From UHGV virus genome UHGV-0309502: DNA of 35,430 bases, one strand, 5' to 3'. The translations under genes were made by a program, and so were the position numbers. Position 1 is the stretch's first letter. Each line of letters opens with the position of its first letter. Positions 1-35,303 of this stretch are shown here, in pieces. This DNA comes from a virus. The notes beneath the pieces are model-generated. The model searched no databases, was not told where the DNA came from, and was given only the letters and a program-made list of their open reading frames with translations.

Positions 1-2
1 TG

Positions 3-137
3 CGCCGCATGGATGAAATCATGGAGGCTCTTGATAATCGTTCGTCAATGGATTGGTGTGTTGCTGTCCATGATATGAATGCAGGGTTTGATGAAAAGAT
101 TTTGTTCCCCTCATCAGTTGAAAGCACAGCAGGATAA
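3..137 (+). CDS. hypothetical protein, 3'-partial (C-terminal 44 codons)
   Basis: Only frame open from the window edge; TAA at 135-137; terminator hairpin follows. Frame is continuous with the 5'-partial ORF at 35304..35430 if the window ends are joined. Confidence 0.4.
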   Translation, partial: RRMDEIMEALDNRSSMDWCVAVHDMNAGFDEKILFPSSVESTAG

Positions 138-172
138 GGACCCAGCAAATATACACAACCTATAAAACACTA

Positions 173-198
173 AAGCGCCTCAGGGGCGCTTTTTGTTT
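173..198 (+). terminator. rho-independent terminator
   Basis: Stem AAGCGCC/GGCGCTT with 5-nt loop, followed by a T-run, about 35 nt after the stop at 137. Confidence 0.55.
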
Positions 199-596
199 GC
201 ACAAAAGTGCACAAATTTGCACAATTTTTTTGAACGACTTTTTACCCTTCCGGCCCGCATGGCGGCTGGATCCGTCAAGGATCCGTGCGTGCACAAAAAA
301 ACGCGCTTTTTCTGCGCGCAGGTGACGGGGGAACAGCCCGCGTTTCAGGGGGTAAATAGCATTCCCTGAACGATGTCGCAGAGACACAACAGAATGGCCA
401 TATTTCTCACGCTGAGCATGAAAAAGGCGTGAGGGCTTTTGATTTGATGGGGTGAAAGGTAAGGCCGTCAAAATCGCACTGAGGCAGCGAGAACATACAG
501 TCAACGCGGTGGAATTGCGTAAGAGTCTGACCGTCGATGGTGGCGATAAACTGGAAGGCGTCGTGAAATTATCTGATTGATACAGGAGCTGGAGAG

Positions 597-623
597 CCGG
601 GGCATAAATTTTTTATGCCCCGG
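597..623. terminator. perfect palindromic hairpin, bidirectional terminator-like
   Basis: CCGGGGCATAAA-ttt-TTTATGCCCCGG, 12-bp perfect arms, A/T-rich on both sides; about 100 bp upstream of the ORF at 724. Confidence 0.4.
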
Positions 624-723
624 CGAAGCAGCAGACAAGCGAAGCGCGTCAGCGATACGGCACCTTGCCGACCATACTTCATAAGTGCAAAATACGAGCA
701 AAGAAATCAATGGAGGCTGTCTT

Positions 724-1248
724 ATGGTCATTAATTACAAGCAGTTAAGAGAAAAACGGGAGCAGGTAAAGGAGAGCTTTCGCCGCAATGAAGATCTGAC
801 CCCGCTTGTACGCCTTGCCCAGGGCATTGTTGATGCTTATGAAATCTCGCTGGAGCTGCCATCACAGACCTGGACAGATAGCGACGGTAATCGCCAGCAT
901 TACGTTTCATGCGGACTGGAAGCAGCCGAAGGATTTCGCAGAATGCCTTTATCCCAGATCCCTGCCGCTACCCCCAAAGCATGGGGCAGCAATGATGAGC
1001 GAAAACTGACTTTTAGTATTGAAACGGTGGTTGACGACACACCTGGCGAAGTCGCGTTCGTACACACTCCTGTTTCGATCGCAATGTATAACGATGAAAT
1101 ACAGGTTCGCGTTAATAATAATATCGTGCCACTTAAAGAAGGTAATTCACCCTACACCACCGTTTGTGAAGCCATTCAATATTACGTTCTCTCTGAAATT
1201 GATAATCTCAAGCCTGACGGCACCCAGAAAATGGTTCAACTCTGGTAA
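724..1248 (+). CDS. hypothetical protein (174 aa), cargo gene beside the portal gene
   Basis: ORF-track frame 685..1248; ATG at 724 is preceded by GGAGG at 7-nt spacing; ends in a hairpin terminator; no family recognised by eye. Confidence 0.55.
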   Translation: MVINYKQLREKREQVKESFRRNEDLTPLVRLAQGIVDAYEISLELPSQTWTDSDGNRQHYVSCGLEAAEGFRRMPLSQIPAATPKAWGSNDERKLTFSIETVVDDTPGEVAFVHTPVSIAMYNDEIQVRVNNNIVPLKEGNSPYTTVCEAIQYYVLSEIDNLKPDGTQKMVQLW

Positions 1249-1253
1249 AAAGG

Positions 1254-1280
1254 ACAGCCCCATCACGGGGCTGTTTTTTC
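1254..1280. terminator. bidirectional terminator hairpin between convergent genes
   Basis: ACAGCCCC-atca-GGGGCTGT followed by TTTTTT; A-run on the other strand; overlaps the 3' end of Q. Confidence 0.5.
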
Positions 1281-2309
1281 ATCAAGAAGAGCATAAGAGT
1301 TAAAACGGATCACCTCTTCGCCAAGCCAGTCATTGATGTGCTTCATAGCCTCCATGACGGGCATCAGCTCGTTAATTGCGTAAACCCGCGCTGCCTTCTC
1401 CACATCGCCAAACGCACTTTTTTCGCCCGGCATCGCCCCCATCAGTTGCGGCGGAACGCGGTGCGCAGCCAGCACATCATCACGGGATGCCGCCTTAACA
1501 TTCATGAATTCATCTTTTGCGGTGATCTGCTGGAACGGCAAAATTTGCACCCCCTCTTTGCCCCCGTTGGGCGCATGAATGAGCACGTTTTTAAACGCAC
1601 CACCACCACGTGCCCCCTGTAGCGTTTCTTTCAGGGAGTCCATGCTTTCGCGGTTTACCTGCGCTGCACCGATGTAGATGATGCACCCGGCGTGGGATCC
1701 GTTGTCGTAGTACAGTTTTCTGAACATGTCCGCCGAATGAGAAAGGCTGGCCGAGAGTAATGCGCCAAGATATTCCGGCATGCCGTAGATTTCCTGGTTA
1801 ATATCCGGATTCATCAGGTGGCACACTTTGCCAGGACGAAACTGAAACGCGTCCTTGCCATCCTGCACATACCACCATGATTCAAGATCGCTTCCGCGTC
1901 GCATGTATTTCGCCAGGGCGTGCCGTAATTTAAGCGGTTCGCCGAGCATATTGCTTCGAAGCTCAAGGAATGCGTTACCGAACACAAACCAGTCCAGCGC
2001 CAGCGCCGAGAAATCCTGCCGGGAAAGCAGCGGGTGCGGGATGTAGCAACCGAGTAATACATTGCGCTTAAAGTAAAGCGCAGACTGATGCCAGGACGTT
2101 TGCCGGGCAGCTCTTGCCAGACCGTACCAGTCCACCGGGGTTTCATACCACCGCCCGTTATCAGCACAGTACATATTGTCCAGCAGGTCATGCCCGGTCA
2201 GGCGATAAGGACCATCAAATGTGAATGCACTGAGCGATGATTCTTTCCTGAGCGCATCAGCGAGATCAATGCGTGAACTCATGCGCACTTTTTTATTTTT
2301 TCTGCTCAT
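1263..2309 (-). CDS. Q: portal (capsid vertex) protein, P2 gpQ family
   Basis: 348-aa ORF; position and orientation paired with the terminase gene as in the P2 PQ operon; sequence resembles recalled gpQ. Confidence 0.85.
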   Translation of the reverse strand: MSRKNKKVRMSSRIDLADALRKESSLSAFTFDGPYRLTGHDLLDNMYCADNGRWYETPVDWYGLARAARQTSWHQSALYFKRNVLLGCYIPHPLLSRQDFSALALDWFVFGNAFLELRSNMLGEPLKLRHALAKYMRRGSDLESWWYVQDGKDAFQFRPGKVCHLMNPDINQEIYGMPEYLGALLSASLSHSADMFRKLYYDNGSHAGCIIYIGAAQVNRESMDSLKETLQGARGGGAFKNVLIHAPNGGKEGVQILPFQQITAKDEFMNVKAASRDDVLAAHRVPPQLMGAMPGEKSAFGDVEKAARVYAINELMPVMEAMKHINDWLGEEVIRFNSYALLDEKTAP

Positions 2310-4060
2310 CAGAACTCCATAACTGTGAAACGCTCGTTTTCTCCTTCGCCGCCAATTGGTTCGTTAATGACAGCAAGCATGGTTGCCCACGCAAGGTCGC
2401 CGTGGCTGATCCCCCTCGCGCGGTCCGTTTCGTAAGTGATAAAGCCGCCCGGTGTTTTCACCTTACGCACGGCGTTAAAGGCTGCGACCAGCTCGCGTTC
2501 GGCGCGATCGTATTCCCACCGCCCGGCACGCATTATTTGCAGCATTTTCAGTACCAGCGACCGTTTTGATGACAGCGTGAAGGTGTACGGAATAGCAGCA
2601 GGGAAAAACCGTTTCACTATCTGATAAACAGCCTCCCCGTTCCCGCCCGTCACATCAATGCCGATGTGTTCCACGTTGTAGCGACACGTGAACTCTTCAA
2701 TGACTCTGGCCTGTTCTTCAAACTCCAGCCCCTGAACGCGTCGCGTCTCCACCGTTCGAAAACGGCCACCAGGAACAGACGGAGGAACCACCACGGACAC
2801 AGCGCCGCTGTCGCCGTTGCCACTGCTGCCGTTTGCGTCATACCCAATCCATACCGGACGATTCCCCATCGGGCGGGGAGCAAAAGGTTTCCAGTCTTTC
2901 CAGTCGTCGTATCCGTCAACACCACAGCCAATCAGGATATTCAGGTTAAATGCCGATTCCCCTTCGCGGACAAACTCACACATATAGAGATTGAGGAACT
3001 CGTCTTCGGTGTTTTCATCACGAATTTCATCAATATCGGTGTGTTTCCAGCCGTGATTAACCACATCTTCCAGCGTGACAATTTGCCGCCACGTCCGGTC
3101 AGGGCAGATAAGCCCGTTATGCAGCGTTTTCCAGTCCACAGAAAAACGCTGGCGTTTATGCGTGGCCTTTTTCTCGTTCCAGCGGTCGCCGTTCCAGTAG
3201 GCGTATGCCTCGTGCGTTTCGGTGGATGGCGTGGAGAAGTAGGTGCGCCGCAGTCCGCTGAGGGTTGCCATAGCGCCAGCCACCTTGCGCAGTTCAGCAA
3301 AGCGACTGACCCAGAAAAATTCATCAAAATAAAAATTGCCCGTATAGGACTGCGCCGACGCAGCAGAAGTGCCGAGAAAATGCAGCTCTGCGCCGTTGGA
3401 GAGGATGATTTTATCGCCCCCTTTCAGCTCCACATCAACTTCAGCCGCGGCCTTCTGAATAATGCTTTTAAACTGGAACGCCTGACGACGCGACGCAGAC
3501 AAAAAAATCTGGTTACGCTGGTAAGGTTGCGCCACATCGTCACGCAGCGCCATCAGCAGTGCTTCCTGTGCAAAATACCAGGTCGCGCCAATCTGTCGGG
3601 ATTTCAGGATCATCCTGTTACGTATCCCGGCTTCCCTGCAAAGGGTCAGGGAGTCAAACCAGCCCCGCTGATGCCACTCCAGCCTGCTGATGATTTTTTC
3701 CCGCAGTGCGACAATCTGTTCCGGCGTGAAATGATTTTTGAGTTTTTTCGCCCGGCCTTTCTTTCCTGTGGCCGTCGCATCCGGCTGGCCATCATGCATT
3801 TTTTTAAGCTGCCGGGTCAGCAGGTCTATTTCCTTAAAGTCACCGCCTGTTTTATTCTGTTTTTCAGTAAGCTGGATGAGGCGCGCATCGATGGACTGCG
3901 TGACACGCTGCACGGGTGGCGTTTCATCCCACTGGTCGCGTTTTTTCCACGCATAAATCGTGTTCGGGTTTATTCCCATCAGACGTGATATTTCTGCGGG
4001 CGGATAACCCTGCCAGTAAAGTTGCCGCGCACGCTGGCGCACAAAAGCGTCCTGAATCAT
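2309..4060 (-). CDS. P: terminase large (ATPase) subunit, P2 gpP family
   Basis: 583-aa ORF; 1-nt overlap with Q; divergent from the O-N-M capsid operon as in P2. Confidence 0.85.
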   Translation of the reverse strand: MIQDAFVRQRARQLYWQGYPPAEISRLMGINPNTIYAWKKRDQWDETPPVQRVTQSIDARLIQLTEKQNKTGGDFKEIDLLTRQLKKMHDGQPDATATGKKGRAKKLKNHFTPEQIVALREKIISRLEWHQRGWFDSLTLCREAGIRNRMILKSRQIGATWYFAQEALLMALRDDVAQPYQRNQIFLSASRRQAFQFKSIIQKAAAEVDVELKGGDKIILSNGAELHFLGTSAASAQSYTGNFYFDEFFWVSRFAELRKVAGAMATLSGLRRTYFSTPSTETHEAYAYWNGDRWNEKKATHKRQRFSVDWKTLHNGLICPDRTWRQIVTLEDVVNHGWKHTDIDEIRDENTEDEFLNLYMCEFVREGESAFNLNILIGCGVDGYDDWKDWKPFAPRPMGNRPVWIGYDANGSSGNGDSGAVSVVVPPSVPGGRFRTVETRRVQGLEFEEQARVIEEFTCRYNVEHIGIDVTGGNGEAVYQIVKRFFPAAIPYTFTLSSKRSLVLKMLQIMRAGRWEYDRAERELVAAFNAVRKVKTPGGFITYETDRARGISHGDLAWATMLAVINEPIGGEGENERFTVMEF

Positions 4061-6172: not shown

Positions 6173-6973
6173 ATGATTACTCCTGCACAACAACACTGGC
6201 AGAACGTGATGGCACAGCGCGCAGGCCGGGCGAATGAAGGTGTGGACCACGCCGCGTGTACCGCGCATGAAGAGGTGCTGTATCGTCTGCGTCTGGCACA
6301 GGCCAGGCTAAAGGCCATACAGGCCAGAAGCGCGAAAGCCGCCATCAAAAAAGAGTTGTTGCCGGACTTTTCCGGCTGGATTGAGGGAACGCTGGAGGCT
6401 GACGGCGGGCAACAGGACGAAGTAATTGCCACGCTGATGGTGTGGGCGATTGACTGCGGCGATCTTCCGCTGGCGCTGCGTATTGGTGCATATGTGGTCC
6501 GTCACAACCTCATCATGCCGGATAACTTTGGCCGTACTGCTGCCACGGTACTGACCGAAGAAATCTGCAACCCGGTACTGACGCAGGCCGGGACGGATGC
6601 CGACGCGGATTTATCCGCCTTTATCGAACCACTGGACACACTTTGGGAAATTGTCGCCAACCAGGACATTCCGGACGAAGTGCGCGCCAAATTATGCAAG
6701 GCGTGTGCCTTTGCCCGTCGTGGCCTGACCGATGCAGACAACATGGCCTCATCACTGAAGCTGCTGCGCGAAGCGATGCACCTGAACCCGAACGCAGGTG
6801 TGAAACGCGAGATTGCAACCCTTTCCCGCGCCCTGAAAAAAGCCGATTCCGCAGCCGAACCAGAAGACGCCAGCGCACAGCAGGCGCAGGACGAAAGCAG
6901 CAAAAGTAAAAAGACAACGCGGAAGCCTGCAACACGAAAAACCACCGCGACGCAGAAGGCAAAGCGCGGTTAA
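6173..6973 (+). CDS. M: terminase small/endonuclease subunit, P2 gpM family
   Basis: 266-aa ORF; strong resemblance to recalled gpM (ITPAQQHW..., DEVRAKL, AGVKREI); basic Lys/Arg-rich C-terminus. Confidence 0.8.
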   Translation: MITPAQQHWQNVMAQRAGRANEGVDHAACTAHEEVLYRLRLAQARLKAIQARSAKAAIKKELLPDFSGWIEGTLEADGGQQDEVIATLMVWAIDCGDLPLALRIGAYVVRHNLIMPDNFGRTAATVLTEEICNPVLTQAGTDADADLSAFIEPLDTLWEIVANQDIPDEVRAKLCKACAFARRGLTDADNMASSLKLLREAMHLNPNAGVKREIATLSRALKKADSAAEPEDASAQQAQDESSKSKKTTRKPATRKTTATQKAKRG

Positions 6974-31507: not shown

Positions 31508-34330
31508 ATGACGGCAGAGTACATCAGGGACTGGCAACAACCGCGCCACGCAGTGGGGCGTGAAGGAACGGGGATCCCCGCTCCTGAATCCGCGCTTTCC
31601 TCCTGGCTGGATGCCTACCGGGCAGAGAACGAGCGCCGCCAGGAAATGGCTGATGCGGCGTTCTCCGCCACGCCGCTGGGCAACCTGATTAATAAAAGCC
31701 TAGACGCACAGGAAAAACAGGACAAAACAATCACACTGGCAGGAGACGCCAGAAAACAGGCACGCGGCGCGGTAGATGAGGCCATGGCCTCACTGCGCCT
31801 GCTGCCGTCCTATCTGCGCGATCCGCTTATTCGCCACCTCTCCTTCCTGCGCAAAAAACAGGAAGCCGATCGTCAGCAAGGAAAAAACGCCAGGCAGGCA
31901 GAACGCTATGCGCGTGGGACCCTGCGCAAAATATTCGAACGTCTGGAGCGCACCGATCACCGCTGGCTGACATCGGGTTATCGCTCCCTTGCCGGACGTG
32001 AACGCCTGGACGATTTGATTTACCTGCCGCAACTCAACAAACACCAGATACAGACGCTGGCCACCATGACGGCGGCGATGTTCAGCAGCACCTTCGAAAA
32101 ACTCTGCGATGGTTTTGGCGCGACTGATGGCGAGCTGACCATGGATGTAACGCTGAAGGCGTATCAGATGCTGGCCCGCATGGCGTTACACTTACACGCC
32201 ATGCCTCCGCATTATGACGCACTGACAACAGACAAAGACCGGAGGCACGAACCGGACACAGAACTGCTGCCGGGCGCAATCCTTCGCCTGACCTGTGCGG
32301 AATGGTGGAAACGCAAACTGTGGCTGTTACGTTGCGAGTGGAGAGAAGAACAACTCCGCGCCGCCTGTCTAGTTTCCAGAAAAACATCGCCCTATCTGAG
32401 CCAGGACGCGTTAAGCGAGTTTCGCGCACAGCGCGAGAAAACACGCGATTTCCTGAAAAGTTTCATGCTGGAAAATGAAGACGGGTTCACGATTGATCTC
32501 GAGACGGTGTATTACGCGGGAGTAAGTAACCCGGTTCACCGTAAGGCAGAAATGATGGCCACCATGAAGGGGCTGGAACTTCTGGCCGAAGCCCGTGGCG
32601 ACAAAGCGGTGTTTCTGACTGTCACCTGCCCGTCAAAATACCACGCCACAACGGAGAACGGTCATCCGAATCCCAAATGGAACGGGGCCACAATGCGCGA
32701 CTCCAGCGATTACCTGGTTAACACGTTTTTTGCGGCGGTCCGCAAAAAACTGAACCGCGACGACCTGCGCTGGTATGGCATCCGCACGGTGGAGCCTCAT
32801 CATGACGGCACCGTGCACTGGCATATGATGGTCTTTGCACATCCGGAAGAAATCGACACCATTGTGTCCCATACCCGCGATATTGCCATTCAGGAAGACC
32901 GCCACGAGCTGGGCAATGATATTACTCCGCGCTTTAAGGTGGAGTATGTCGACGGCTCAAAAGGCACGCCAACCAGCTACATCGCCACCTACATCGGAAA
33001 GAACCTGGACAGCCGCGCCGTGGATGGCATCGACCCGAAAACGGACAAGCCACGCGTGGACCACGAAACCGGAAAATCAATGGCCGAGAGCGTGGAACGC
33101 GCCATCGGCTGGGCGCGTCTTCACCGCGTCCGCCAGTTCCAGTTCTTTGGTATCCCCTCCCGTCAGGTATGGCGTGAACTCCGCCGCCTTGCCAGTCAGA
33201 TGGCCCGCAACCCGGAAGGTCCACAACGTCTGGAAAATGACGCAATGGATGCGGTACTCGCTGCCGCTGATGCCGGGTGTTTTGCCACCTACATTGAGAA
33301 ACAGGGTGGCGTACTTGTTCCACGCAAAGACTACCTGATTCGCACCGCCTACGACCTCGCAGAAGAGCTGAACGATTACGGCGAGCAAAGCGTACAGATT
33401 TACGGGATCTGGTCGCCACAAATCGGGGAATCTTCCCGCGTGTGCACGCACCCGGATAACTGGAAGCTGGTAAGACGTAAACCGGAAGCGGAAGACAGCG
33501 CCCGCGAAAATGGTTTTGACCTTCAGGGCGGCCCTGCCGCCCCTTGGACTCGTGGCAATAACTGTCCCCGTGTACAGGAAACGGACAACAACGGGACAGA
33601 ACAGCCGGAAGAACGGCCAGCACCGTGGCCGCAGCTCCCTGACGGCGTTGAAGTGAACGAATGGATGCGCTCACTGAAACGGCACGAACGCCGGGCGCTG
33701 ATGCGTTCGCTTCGTGACAAACAGGCAAAAAACAGCAGTGATGAAATGCAGAGCTGGACACAGAGCCGCAAACAGCAGCGGCCTTTGCCTGATAACCACG
33801 AATTACTCGCTAAAGAATGGCGGGAGTCTGCTGAATCTCTCGGCCTGCATATCGGTGAACAGCAGATGCAGCACCTGTTACGGGGCGGCAGTCTGTACGT
33901 TGACGGCAGCATCATTGCACCGCAGGGATTTGAAATTGTACGCAAACCGGATACCCGACCGGACAGCCGGATCACGCAGCTCTGGCAGCGCCTGAGCCGT
34001 AACCACGGCGTAAGCAGCACGGAGATCCGCCATAACCCGGTCGCCAGCTATCTGGAACAGCTGGGGGCATCAGACCCCGAAGCCGCCGCACGCCTGGCAT
34101 CCACACTTCAGCAAGACCAGAACACCATGAAAACACCCGTTACCGTGCTTTCTGACATGCTGCGCGCCATCCGCGACGCAGAGCACGCACAGAGAATCAG
34201 TGAAACCACTGAACGCGCCCGCCGCAAAGCAGACCTGCTGCGAGGTGGCCTGACCAGTGGAAACAAAAAACAGACAGAAACGGGATTCACAAATCCCGTA
34301 AATGAGCAAAAAACGCGCCGCGATATATGA
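31508..34330 (+). CDS. A: replication initiation endonuclease, P2 gpA (rolling-circle HUH) family
   Basis: 940 aa; metal-binding HWH in TVHWHMMVFAH and tyrosine pair in SYIATYIGKN typical of gpA-type Rep proteins; position after the early operon. Confidence 0.8.
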   Translation: MTAEYIRDWQQPRHAVGREGTGIPAPESALSSWLDAYRAENERRQEMADAAFSATPLGNLINKSLDAQEKQDKTITLAGDARKQARGAVDEAMASLRLLPSYLRDPLIRHLSFLRKKQEADRQQGKNARQAERYARGTLRKIFERLERTDHRWLTSGYRSLAGRERLDDLIYLPQLNKHQIQTLATMTAAMFSSTFEKLCDGFGATDGELTMDVTLKAYQMLARMALHLHAMPPHYDALTTDKDRRHEPDTELLPGAILRLTCAEWWKRKLWLLRCEWREEQLRAACLVSRKTSPYLSQDALSEFRAQREKTRDFLKSFMLENEDGFTIDLETVYYAGVSNPVHRKAEMMATMKGLELLAEARGDKAVFLTVTCPSKYHATTENGHPNPKWNGATMRDSSDYLVNTFFAAVRKKLNRDDLRWYGIRTVEPHHDGTVHWHMMVFAHPEEIDTIVSHTRDIAIQEDRHELGNDITPRFKVEYVDGSKGTPTSYIATYIGKNLDSRAVDGIDPKTDKPRVDHETGKSMAESVERAIGWARLHRVRQFQFFGIPSRQVWRELRRLASQMARNPEGPQRLENDAMDAVLAAADAGCFATYIEKQGGVLVPRKDYLIRTAYDLAEELNDYGEQSVQIYGIWSPQIGESSRVCTHPDNWKLVRRKPEAEDSARENGFDLQGGPAAPWTRGNNCPRVQETDNNGTEQPEERPAPWPQLPDGVEVNEWMRSLKRHERRALMRSLRDKQAKNSSDEMQSWTQSRKQQRPLPDNHELLAKEWRESAESLGLHIGEQQMQHLLRGGSLYVDGSIIAPQGFEIVRKPDTRPDSRITQLWQRLSRNHGVSSTEIRHNPVASYLEQLGASDPEAAARLASTLQQDQNTMKTPVTVLSDMLRAIRDAEHAQRISETTERARRKADLLRGGLTSGNKKQTETGFTNPVNEQKTRRDI

Positions 34331-34406: not shown

Positions 34407-34808
34407 ATGAAAATTTGTATCGATGACGGCTCCACCAACATCAAGCTGGCATGGACTGAGAACGGCGAACGCCGCAACGCCATCAGCCCGAACAGCTTCA
34501 AGTCGGAATGGTCTGCGCCGTTCGGTGGCACGCAGCCCGCGAACTACATGCTTGATGGCGTGCGCTATGGTTTTGATCCGGTCAGCGATCGCTTTGTCCA
34601 GACAACTGACACGCAATACCAGTACAGCGATGTGAATGTCATTGCCATTCATCACGCGCTGGTCAAATCAGGCATCACGCCACAGGAGGTGGATGTGGTT
34701 GTCACCCTGCCACTGAGCGAGTATTTCGACACAAACGCACAGCCGGACATAGCCAACATCAACCGCAAAAAAAGCCCAGGATTCCCGGGGCGGTTCAGAG
34801 GAGAGTGA
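34407..34808 (+). pseudogene. ParM/StbA-family actin-like ATPase, N-terminal fragment only (133 codons)
   Basis: MKICIDDGSTNIKLAW...ISPNSFK.EW...QYSDVNV.A.HHAL closely parallels the recalled R1 ParM N-terminus; similarity ends after NRKK and the frame stops far short of the ~320 aa of a full ParM. Confidence 0.55.
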
Positions 34809-34810
34809 GA

Positions 34811-35302
34811 ATGCAAATTTCACCGGTTACTCTTCGTGTTGCGAAGGCGTTTATATCCAGACATCACCGACACAATAAACCCCCGGTGGGGCATAAATTC
34901 AGCATTGGTCTGAGAAATGATGCCGGAGAATTGATAGGTGTGGCGACAGCCGGTAGACCTGTTGCACGACATTTGGACGATGGATTAACGCTTGAAGTAA
35001 ATCGCACATGTACCACAGGAGAACGCAACGCTAACAGCGCACTTTATGGTGCTGTCTGGCGGGCAGCAAAGGCTATGGGTTATCAACGTTGTATTACGTA
35101 CACCCAGGCAGATGAATCAGGAGCATCTCTCCGCGCAGCTGGTTTTGTTCGTGTGAAAGAGCTTCCTCCAAGAAAAAGCTGGGCGGAATCAAGCGTCGCC
35201 CTGCGGAGTAAACGCGATCCGGTCGGAAACGGTGGTGTTCCTCGTGTGCTCTGGGAAATCAGGAGAATGAGTACCACTGGCATTCGCATCAAAGGAGAGT
35301 GA
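34811..35302 (+). CDS. hypothetical protein (163 aa)
   Basis: ORF frame 34805..35302; ATG at 34811 after AGAGGAGAG; basic His-rich N-terminus (ISRHHRHNKPP). May belong to the Mom/GNAT-like acyltransferase-fold group sometimes annotated XF1762 family; that is an unverified recollection. Confidence 0.45.
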   Translation: MQISPVTLRVAKAFISRHHRHNKPPVGHKFSIGLRNDAGELIGVATAGRPVARHLDDGLTLEVNRTCTTGERNANSALYGAVWRAAKAMGYQRCITYTQADESGASLRAAGFVRVKELPPRKSWAESSVALRSKRDPVGNGGVPRVLWEIRRMSTTGIRIKGE

Positions 35303-35303
35303 T

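What the first reader, a model, noticed from the sequence alone, without database searches (positions are those of the whole stretch)
198..340. Helically phased TGCACAA repeats and a G-rich 19-mer resembling P2/186 cohesive ends
Three TGCACAA copies at 198, 208 and 218 (10-bp spacing) and a fourth at 290 lie just downstream of a terminator. A G-rich sequence GGTGACGGGGGAACAGCCC (321-339) partly matches the P2 cohesive end as I recall it (GGCGAGGCGGGGAAAGCAC). If cos is here, the repeats could be terminase or host-factor binding sites.
Basis: partly seen in the sequence, partly recalled or inferred. Interest (0 to 1): 0.4.

Follow-up and report, generated by a model that had tools for sequence, protein, structure and literature searches.

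The report
P2-family cos site with phased repeats
This is very probably the DNA-packaging (cos) site of a P88-like, P2-family phage, and its TGCACAA repeats are conserved cos elements kept at fixed distances in nearly 200 related phages and their satellites; it is an ordinary kind of feature with a usefully sharp anatomy.

Summary
TGCACAA occurs at 198, 208, 218 and 290, and it is the only phased 7-mer triplet in the window (0 of 300 simulated sequences have one). GGTGACGGGGGAACAGCCC lies at 321-339.

The window is a P88-like (Xuanwuvirus, Peduoviridae) genome. The region sits where P2 has cos, between the variable cargo hotspot and the portal gene.

The 13/19 match to the P2 cohesive end is not significant alone: 12 sites in the window score as well. 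The comparative evidence is strong:
- P2, P4 and 186 have TGCA repeats at the same distances from their mapped nick (-123/-124, -111, -101, -29).
- In 198 distinct cos regions, TGCA occupies positions -72, -82 and about -92 relative to the proximal repeat in 68-86% of sequences. Background is below 1%.
- Satellites with no terminase of their own keep the repeats and the G-rich core at 91-100% identity, while the spacers fall to 50-76%.

My reading is a P2-type cos. It has a distal triplet (R1-R3), a proximal repeat (R4, the edge of the published 55-bp core), a GC dyad and the nicking site. The repeats are most likely terminase recognition elements, but that binding is inferred. The exact ends (319/321 to 337/339) are unmapped.

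This is a new member of a known kind, of moderate interest.

The parts
172..192 (+). Terminator-like hairpin plus T run that ends the upstream cargo (hotspot) gene. It is not part of the conserved cos block in most relatives.
   Evidence: 9-pair stem followed by TTGTTT; homology with most P88-like phages and E. coli prophages starts only at 198.
198..204 (+). R1, the first distal TGCACAA repeat. It marks the left boundary of the conserved cos block.
   Evidence: matches begin exactly at 198. TGCA at -92 from R4 in 76% of 92 distinct TGCAC-type cos regions.
208..214 (+). R2, the second distal repeat (GTGCACAA).
   Evidence: high information content. TGCA at -82 from R4 in 75% of TGCAC-type and 68% of TGCAT-type regions.
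218..224 (+). R3, the third distal repeat (TTGCACAAT). It is the best conserved of the triplet.
   Evidence: TGCA at -72 from R4 in 86% of TGCAC-type and 74% of TGCAT-type regions, against a background of 0.3-0.65%.
225..231 (+). T7 tract after R3. Together with the A/T runs that follow R1 and R2 it gives A/T tracts roughly in helical phase.
   Evidence: sequence; moderately conserved in the TGCAC-type clade but absent from P2/186/P4.
249..288 (.). Central GC-rich spacer with dyad symmetry (GGATCC-N5-GGATCC at 268-284). Its sequence varies between relatives but its length is fixed.
   Evidence: hairpin potential; the R3-to-R4 distance is 72 bp, rarely 71, in both clades, although sequence identity is only 17-76%.
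290..300 (+). R4, the proximal repeat TGCACAAAAAA. It is the counterpart of TGCATTAAAA, which begins the stretch shared by P2 and P4 (my placement of the published 55-bp core).
   Evidence: It is 100% identical between the window and the E. coli satellite.
301..319 (.). GC dyad (ACGCGC-N7-GCGCGC) next to the nicking site. It is the counterpart of the P2 dyad CCGCCC-N6-GGGCGG. Read on the minus strand with the T run of R4, it looks like a terminator.
   Evidence: minus-strand hairpin 319-301 followed by TTTTTTT. GCGCGCA is invariant in the clade.
321..339 (+). G-rich candidate cohesive end (cosN), GGTGACGGGGGAACAGCCC. The predicted 5' overhang starts at 321 by local homology or at 319 by distance from the repeats, and ends at 337-339.
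   Evidence: identical or nearly identical in phages of at least 15 enterobacterial genera; 95-100% identical in satellites; alignment with the mapped P2/P4/186 ends.
340..360 (+). Conserved downstream flank (GCGTTTCAGGGGGTAAATAGC) containing a G run. It marks the right edge of the block shared with the E. coli satellite.
   Evidence: +20..+40 is 90% identical to the satellite, and +41..+80 is at random level (28%)..
596..624 (.). Perfect 13-bp inverted repeat in the position of the P2 terminator tQ, between cos and the portal operon.
   Evidence: repeat I2; tQ lies at the equivalent place in P2. The simple scan did not score it as a terminator.
1263..2309 (-). Portal gene (homologue of P2 gpQ).
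   Evidence: PF04860; 45% identity to P2 gpQ.
2309..4060 (-). Large terminase (homologue of P2 gpP), with an N-terminal helix-turn-helix domain (Terminase_5) in front of the ATPase and nuclease domains.
   Evidence: PF06056, PF03237 and PF17289, plus HTH_23 at residues 8-41.
6173..6973 (+). Small terminase (homologue of P2 gpM). It is one of two candidate binders of the repeats.
   Evidence: PF05944, E = 7e-37.

Best explanation
Window 198-360 is the cos (cohesive-end packaging) site of a P88-like, P2-family phage.

**Layout.** Read on the + strand it contains:
- three TGCACAA repeats at a 10-bp period (R1-R3);
- a spacer of fixed length, with R3 to R4 = 72 bp;
- a proximal repeat, R4;
- a short GC dyad;
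- a G-rich nicking site.

**Proposed mechanism.** The phage terminase recognises the four repeats, which all point the same way on the right-end side of the nicking site. Terminase here means the gpM-like small subunit together with the gpP-like large subunit, which carries an N-terminal helix-turn-helix. Binding sets the position of the nuclease. The nuclease then makes staggered nicks at about 319/321 (top strand) and 337/339 (bottom strand), giving 5' cohesive ends of about 17-19 nt.

**Satellites.** Elements that borrow this terminase must carry the same repeat-plus-core module.

**Shown versus inferred.** Shown here by computation: the location, the conservation pattern, the fixed geometry, and the shared module in satellites. 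Inferred: cleavage at these exact bases, and that terminase rather than a host protein reads the repeats.
For: **Gene context.**
- Gene order matches P2. The A-type replication gene and cargo genes lie upstream. The portal and TerL genes read leftwards downstream, and the scaffold, capsid and TerS genes follow.
- Rousset et al. place the P2 cos between gpA and gpQ, next to a variable hotspot (PMC9122126).

**Same layout in mapped cos sites.**
- In P2, P4 and 186 the ends are annotated or form the record termini. TGCA lies at -123/-124, -111, -101 and -29 from the nick in these three.
- In the window it lies at -123, -113, -103 and -31 from position 321.

**Conservation across relatives.**
- Enterobacter phage phiT5282H is 74% identical across the matched 150 nt. 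It has the identical 19-mer and the same repeats, and homology stops right after the 19-mer.
- In 198 distinct cos regions TGCA occupies -72 and -82 from R4 in 68-86% of sequences. The R1 position is occupied in 76% of TGCAC-type regions (-92). In TGCAT-type regions it is split between -95 (49%), -91 (35%) and -92 (19%). Background at other positions is 0.3-0.65%.
- An alignment of 27 representatives at or below 85% identity shows separate conserved islands at R2, R3, R4, GCGCGCA and the G-rich core.
- The spacer keeps its length while its sequence diverges.

**Satellites as a natural experiment.**
- P4 aligns to P2 at 17% in the spacer. It keeps the TGCA positions and 93-100% of the core.
- A second satellite family encodes a Toprim primase, integrases, an Ogr/Delta protein and a P2-type capsid protein. 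No portal or terminase gene was found in its loci.
- That family carries the P88-type module. Identity to phage cos sites is 97% for R1-R3, 91-100% for R4, 100% for GCGCGCA and 95-100% for the 19-mer. Spacers are 50-76% identical and flanks about 30%.

**Prevalence and experiment.**
- The block is present in 1146 of 5426 complete E. coli genomes, and most matches start exactly at R1.
- A P2 cosmid study found that a packaging signal with longer flanks around cos raised transduction by about 10,000- to 50,000-fold (PMC9594776).
Against: - No virion end has been mapped for any phage of this clade. No public record of a P88-like phage starts at the proposed site, and LR595891 starts at window position about 243 as a plain circular permutation.
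- The 19-mer's similarity to the P2 end is no better than chance.
- The nick position is ambiguous by 2 nt. Local homology gives 321, while distance from the repeats gives 319.
- No protein-DNA data exist for the repeats.
- The sequences compared are related, so part of the conservation is shared ancestry rather than selection.
- In P2 the R1/R2 region also overlaps the -35 region of the old-tin promoter, so the repeats can carry a second role.
- I could not read the primary deletion study (Ziermann and Calendar 1990), so I do not know whether its minimal cos includes R1-R3.
Confidence: 0.68

Rival explanations
1. Cos is here, but the repeats are not read by terminase. They bind a host architectural protein, or simply make a bent or curved segment that helps terminase act at cosN. 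IHF and the intrinsic bend play this role in lambda cosB.
For: In the window the repeats are followed by A/T tracts roughly in helical phase (AAAA, AAATT, AATTTTTTT), which predicts curvature. The same elements work in phages of many enterobacterial genera, which a conserved host protein could explain.
Against: There is no IHF consensus (WATCAANNNNTTR, up to 1 mismatch) on either strand of 150-420. The A/T tracts are absent from the P2/186/P4 versions, while the TGCA cores are kept. The repeat consensus differs between clades that share hosts: TGCAT in P2/186/P4 and TGCACAA in P88-like phages, all from E. coli. That fits phage-specific recognition better than a common host factor.
Confidence: 0.14
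2. The repeats are conserved only because they sit next to cos. They would be a recombination boundary of the cargo hotspot or a hitch-hiking remnant, with no role in packaging.
For: Homology with relatives begins exactly at R1, and everything upstream is variable cargo. Rousset et al. suggest that cos-proximal ends promote exchange of the hotspot (PMC9122126).
Against: Hitch-hiking predicts uniform decay of similarity. Instead the spacers between the repeats and the core diverge to 17-76% identity, while the repeat cores stay at 91-100% and at fixed distances. P2 and P4 are unrelated across the 60-bp spacer yet keep TGCA at the same three positions.
Confidence: 0.08
3. The repeats are transcriptional signals for neighbouring genes and are unrelated to packaging. 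They could be an operator or promoter for cargo genes, or part of a terminator.
For: In P2 the old-tin transcript starts at 33424/33426 on the minus strand, which puts the -35 region over R1/R2. TTGCAC resembles a -35 hexamer. On the minus strand, R4 plus the GC dyad looks like a terminator.
Against: The scan found no sigma-70-like promoter in 198-340. The neighbouring genes differ completely among phages and satellites that keep the repeats. The distance that is conserved is the one to the nicking site, not to any gene.
Confidence: 0.06
4. The phased repeats are a parC-like centromere for the ParM-like gene at the other end of the window.
For: A ParM/StbA N-terminal fragment lies at 34407-34808 in the cargo region that adjoins this site on the circular map. 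ParR centromeres are phased direct repeats, which I state from general knowledge.
Against: The ParM-like ORF is only a 133-aa N-terminal fragment. The repeats are present at the same place in phages and satellites whose upstream cargo is completely different.
Confidence: 0.01

Closest known systems
cos sites of phages P2 and 186 and satellite P4 (19-nt 5' cohesive ends; the '55-bp core' of Ziermann and Calendar 1990, as cited in PMC5694545, PMC3931495 and PMC9594776)
   Same: - It occupies the same genomic position, between the gpA/hotspot side and the portal gene.
- The same terminase families are encoded nearby (PF05944, PF06056, PF03237, PF17289).
- The order of elements is the same: three distal TGCA repeats, a spacer with R3-to-R4 fixed at 72 bp, a proximal TGCA-A-rich repeat, a GC dyad and a G-rich end containing CGGGG.
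- Satellites share the module with their helpers.
   Different: - The repeat consensus is TGCACAA rather than TGCAT.
- P2/186/P4 have an extra TGCA at -35.
- The R1-to-R2 spacing is 10 bp here and 12-13 bp in P2/P4/186.
- The G-rich end is GGTGA-CGGGGGAACAGCCC, which is 13/19 identical to P2 and shorter by 2 nt between GA and CGGGG. Two extra nucleotides in the dyad region compensate, so the distance from the repeats to the G run is unchanged.
- The ends here are not mapped.
Lambda cos (cosQ, cosN, and cosB with the R3, R2, R1 sites for gpNu1 and the IHF site I1)
   Same: It is a composite packaging site. A nicking site is flanked by several copies of a short motif that are presumably read by the small terminase. 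This is a functional analogy drawn from general knowledge of lambda as summarised in PMC7617512.
   Different: - There is no sequence similarity and the terminase family is different.
- The repeats lie on the right-end side of the nicking site, away from the terminase genes. In lambda that side holds cosQ, not cosB.
- No IHF consensus is present.
- All four repeats have the same orientation.
Cos regions of Klebsiella-type P2-like phages (for example CP052639.1)
   Same: They have the same TGCACAA repeats, the same spacing and the same GCGCGCA junction.
   Different: Their G-rich end is GGCGAGGCGGGGGAGCAAG, close to that of P2. The repeat type and the end type therefore combine as separate modules.

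Membership tests
P2-family (Peduoviridae) cos site | Lies between the replication (gpA)/cargo region and the leftward portal-large terminase operon | tested here: met
   gpA homologue at 31508-34330, cargo at 34407-35430 and 1-137, portal at 1263-2309(-), TerL at 2309-4060(-). The P2 layout is given and in PMC9122126.
P2-family (Peduoviridae) cos site | The phage encodes a P2-type terminase (gpM-type small subunit and gpP-type large subunit) | tested here: met
   PF05944 (E = 7e-37), PF06056, PF03237 and PF17289.
P2-family (Peduoviridae) cos site | Conserved core around the ends: a proximal TGCA-A-rich element, a GC dyad, and a G-rich 19-nt end followed by a GC-rich flank (the published '55-bp core') | tested here: met
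   every element is present in the same order and register. Sequence identity to P2 itself is low (19-mer 13/19), but intermediates such as the Klebsiella type link the two.
P2-family (Peduoviridae) cos site | Distal TGCA repeats at about -101, -111 and -123 from the nick. This feature is defined here from P2, P4, 186 and 198 distinct regions. I could not establish whether the literature lists it. | tested here: met
P2-family (Peduoviridae) cos site | Terminase cuts here to give 19-nt 5' cohesive ends on virion DNA | not testable with these tools
   There are no virion-end data for this clade, and no public record starts at the site.
P2-family (Peduoviridae) cos site | The site is sufficient for packaging of a plasmid by the helper (cosmid transduction) | not testable with these tools
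   There is only indirect support: satellites without a terminase carry the same module.
Lambda-type cosB (small-terminase binding repeats plus an IHF site) | Repeats bound by the small terminase subunit | not testable with these tools
   Inference only. A footprint or gel-shift assay is needed.
Lambda-type cosB (small-terminase binding repeats plus an IHF site) | An IHF site among the repeats | tested here: not met
   no WATCAANNNNTTR match with up to 1 mismatch in 150-420.

The most novel reading that the evidence does not exclude
The distal TGCA triplet lies outside the published 55-bp core. Together with the proximal repeat it may be the long-missing terminase-binding part (a cosB equivalent) of all P2-family cos sites. 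Its two sequence classes would then set which helpers can package which satellites. TGCAT occurs in P2/186 and P4-like satellites. TGCACAA occurs in P88-like, Novemvirus-like and Klebsiella-type phages and in a family of satellites that encode their own P2-type capsid protein.
Probability: 0.4. Interest if true: 0.55.

Novelty: new member of a known kind. Interest (0 to 1): 0.33.

Why it matters
P88-like prophages are in about a fifth of complete E. coli genomes, yet nothing is annotated at this site in most of the records I inspected.

Knowing the site and its parts has three uses:
- It fixes the correct genome ends.
- It defines the right-hand boundary of the anti-phage cargo hotspot.
- It gives a compact packaging signal of about 165 bp for cosmid and transducing-particle design.

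The comparative anatomy also turns a vague idea, that terminase must recognise something beyond the 55-bp core, into precise predictions that can be tested. These concern four repeat cores, a 72-bp spacer that tolerates sequence change but not length change, and two specificity classes shared between helpers and satellites.

Tried and rejected
**Arguments and hypotheses rejected**
- **Similarity to the P2 19-mer as evidence for cos.** Rejected as an argument on its own. It scores 13/19, and 12 sites in the window score as well.
- **Promoter reading.** The scan found no sigma-70-like site in 198-340.
- **IHF site.** None was found.
- **Known RNA family.** The only match was a noise-level hit to SprD, 17.7 bits against a threshold of 100.
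- **parC-like centromere for the ParM fragment.** Rejected because the repeats occur in phages and satellites with unrelated cargo.

**Searches that led nowhere**
- **Record termini as a proxy for virion ends.** No P88-like record starts at the site. LR595891 starts at window position about 243, but its end joins seamlessly to its start, so the cut is arbitrary.
- **Literature on the minimal cos.** The library does not hold Ziermann and Calendar 1990, the Christie and Calendar review, or the Lindqvist review. Papers that cite them mention only the 55-bp core. The supplement of PMC9594776 has no cosmid sequences.

**Not pursued or left open**
- **Covariation of repeat type with the terminase subunits.** With two or three classes it would only mirror phylogeny.
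- **A contig that ends 16 nt into the 19-mer.** It is followed by an adapter-like string, and I could not interpret it as a physical end.

Full report
**Observation.** The sequence is as described. TGCACAA lies at 198, 208, 218 and 290 on the + strand, just after a terminator-like hairpin at 172-192. GGTGACGGGGGAACAGCCC lies at 321-339. The 7-mer is not over-represented in the window as a whole: 9 copies against 8.9 expected. The arrangement is unusual, though. It is the only 7-mer triplet with a 9-12 bp period in 35 kb, and none of 300 simulated sequences had one. The 13/19 match is not meaningful alone, because twelve sites in the window do as well and one does better.

**What the window is.** It is a nearly complete genome of a P88-like phage (genus Xuanwuvirus, family Peduoviridae). 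The first 700 bases are 99.9% identical to Escherichia phage PhiR44_2 and 92-99.8% identical to P88 and its relatives.

Gene order is that of P2. The portal gene is at 1263-2309(-) and the large terminase at 2309-4060(-). Scaffold and capsid genes follow, then the small terminase at 6173-6973(+). An A-type replication gene lies at 31508-34330, and cargo genes run off the right end of the window and in again at the left. In P2 the cos site lies exactly in this interval, between the cargo hotspot and the portal gene (PMC9122126).

**Comparison with mapped cos sites.** I joined the record ends of P2, P4 and 186, whose cohesive ends are annotated or form the record termini. All three have the same layout as the window:
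- TGCA lies at -123/-124, -111 and -101 from the top-strand nick.
- A further TGCA lies at -29, with another at -35 in P4 and 186.
- A short GC dyad follows, then the G-rich 19-nt end.

The window has TGCA at -123, -113, -103 and -31 from position 321.

Later papers cite a '55-bp core' from Ziermann and Calendar (PMC5694545, PMC3931495, PMC9594776). The stretch that P2 and P4 share begins at the proximal TGCATTAAAA, and I take that stretch to be the 55-bp core.

**Breadth of the pattern.**
- A portal-based search of viral contigs gave 61 distinct cos regions.
- A pattern scan of one genome per species gave 31 more, almost all from Enterobacterales genera. Two contigs labelled Vagococcus and Bacillota are probably contamination or mis-binning.
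- A scan with the P2-type core gave 99 distinct P2/186/P4-type regions.
- Pooled, there are 198 distinct regions. TGCA occupies -72 and -82 relative to the proximal repeat in 68-86% of them. The R1 position (-92, or -95/-91 in the TGCAT class) is occupied in most. All other positions average 0.3-0.65%.

The R3-to-R4 distance is 72 bp, rarely 71, in every clade, although the spacer sequence is unrelated between P2 and P4 at 17% identity. An alignment of 27 representatives at or below 85% identity shows separate conserved islands at R2, R3, R4, GCGCGCA, the G-rich core and a G run near +32.

Enterobacter phage phiT5282H is 74% identical across the matched region. It has the identical 19-mer, and homology ends right after it. 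In complete E. coli genomes the block occurs in 1146 of 5426, and most matches start exactly at base 198. R1 is therefore the boundary between variable cargo and the conserved packaging block.

**Satellites as a natural experiment.** P4 depends on the P2 terminase. Outside the core it shares with P2 only the TGCA positions.

I found a second case. An island of about 12.7 kb lies between gcd and hpt in E. coli mip270_22. It encodes an integrase, AlpA-like and Icd-like proteins, a Toprim primase, a second integrase, an Ogr/Delta zinc-finger protein and a P2-family capsid protein. No portal or terminase gene is annotated or detected in it. It carries the P88-type site. Relatives occur in Kluyvera, Erwinia, Apirhabdus, Izhakiella and Escherichia.

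Identity between phage and satellite sites, by segment:

| Segment | Identity |
|---|---|
| R1-R3 | 97% |
| Central spacer | 50-76% |
| R4 | 91-100% |
| GCGCGCA | 100% |
| 19-mer | 95-100% |
| +20 to +40 | 67-90% |
| Flanks on either side | about 30% |

This island pattern is what selection on discrete protein-contact sites predicts. Simple hitch-hiking does not predict it.

**Mechanism.** Shown here are the location, the conserved islands, the fixed geometry and the shared module in satellites that lack a terminase. The rest is inferred. The terminase binds the four repeats, which all point the same way on the right-end side. This places its nuclease over the G-rich site, and staggered nicks produce 5' cohesive ends.

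Two candidate readers are encoded in the window: the gpM-type small subunit, and the N-terminal helix-turn-helix (Terminase_5) of the gpP-type large subunit.

The exact nicks are uncertain by 2 nt. Local homology (GCGCGCA|GG) gives 321. The ungapped register that keeps the repeats and the G run aligned with P2 gives 319. Relative to P2 and the Klebsiella type, this clade lacks 2 nt between GA and CGGGG and has 2 extra in the dyad region. The distance from the repeats to the G run is therefore conserved.

One experimental hint fits a requirement for sequence beyond the core. A P2 cosmid study found that a packaging signal with longer flanks around cos raised transduction by about 10,000- to 50,000-fold (PMC9594776). 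I could not check which bases differed.

**Rivals.**
- **Host architectural factor or curvature.** This is possible. However, there is no IHF consensus, the A/T tracts are not conserved outside this clade, and the repeat consensus differs between phage groups that share E. coli as host.
- **Regulatory role.** This is unlikely as the main function. No promoter-like site was found, the neighbouring genes differ completely between carriers, and the conserved distance is to the nick. In P2, though, the old-tin promoter overlaps R1/R2.
- **Centromere for the ParM fragment.** The distribution of the repeats excludes it.
- **Known RNA family.** None matches.

**Limits.** No virion ends are mapped for this clade, and no public record starts at the site. 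LR595891 begins at window position about 243 but is a plain circular permutation. I could not read the primary deletion study, so I cannot say whether R1-R3 have already been shown to be required or described. The sequences compared are related, so occupancy figures overstate the number of independent observations. The spacer divergence and the satellite comparisons are the stronger arguments.

**Verdict.** This is a cos site of the P2 family in a clade where most records leave it unannotated, so it is a new member of a known kind. The added value is a precise anatomy and a testable proposal that the distal triplet and the proximal repeat are the terminase-recognition part of P2-family cos sites, with two specificity classes shared by helpers and their satellites. 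Interest is moderate (0.33). It would be higher (about 0.55) if that proposal is confirmed and proves to be undescribed.

Noticed in passing
L092 5127-17640 (NZ_CM132655.1, about 2,727,200-2,739,800); relatives in L096, L097, L102, L116 and L121: An island of about 12.7 kb between gcd and hpt looks like a P4-style satellite. It encodes an integrase, AlpA-like and Icd-like proteins, an 889-aa Toprim primase, a second integrase, an Ogr/Delta zinc-finger protein, an unknown 236-aa protein, its own P2-family major capsid protein (423 aa) and MazEF. No portal or terminase gene is present, and it carries the P88-type cos. Diverged relatives (42-59% protein identity) occur in Kluyvera, Ca. Erwinia dacicola, Apirhabdus and Izhakiella.
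   Followed up: partly
L107 and L112 (QAKE01000006.1, 12,723 bp): A contig labelled 'Bacillota bacterium MAG' is one of these enterobacterial satellites. It is more than one unit long and carries cos twice. One contig end stops 16 nt into the G-rich 19-mer and is followed by AGATGTGTA, which looks like a Nextera adapter. I could not tell whether this reflects a physical DNA end.
   Followed up: partly
L101 (NZ_JBQPOM010000071.1, Vagococcus sp. WN89Y): A contig assigned to a Gram-positive genus carries a P88-like phage with a portal 98% identical to the window's. The assembly is probably contaminated.
   Followed up: no
window 685-1248 (+): A 187-aa ORF with no Pfam match sits between the cos region and the portal stop codon. 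Most P88-like phages lack it, and their homology to the window ends near 656. It looks like a second cargo insertion point on the left-end side of cos.
   Followed up: partly
window 34407-35302 (+) and 1-137 (+): The cargo next to cos includes a 133-aa N-terminal fragment of a ParM/StbA-type protein, probably a remnant, and a weak Mom-like ORF of 165 aa. The last 44 codons of a gene shared with lambdoid phages at 95-98% DNA identity lie at 3-137.
   Followed up: partly
window 2309-4060 (-), residues 6-63: The large terminase has an N-terminal helix-turn-helix domain (Terminase_5/HTH_23) ahead of the ATPase. In this family the large subunit could therefore itself read DNA sequence.
   Followed up: no
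window 301-319 with 290-300, minus strand: Read on the minus strand, the GC dyad beside the nicking site plus the T run complementary to R4 scores as an intrinsic terminator. The equivalent P2 sequence (GC hairpin followed by TTTTAATGCA) looks the same.
   Followed up: no
L002 1425-1480 (P2 33424-33480): In P2 the annotated start sites of the old-tin transcript put the -35 region of its promoter on top of the distal cos repeats R1/R2, so one sequence may serve two roles there.
   Followed up: no
window 340-596: A stretch of about 250 bp between the cos core and the 13-bp inverted repeat at 596-624 is conserved among P88-like phages but not in the satellites. One related record annotates a 42-codon GTG-start ORF there (window about 448-582). 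Its function is unknown.
   Followed up: no
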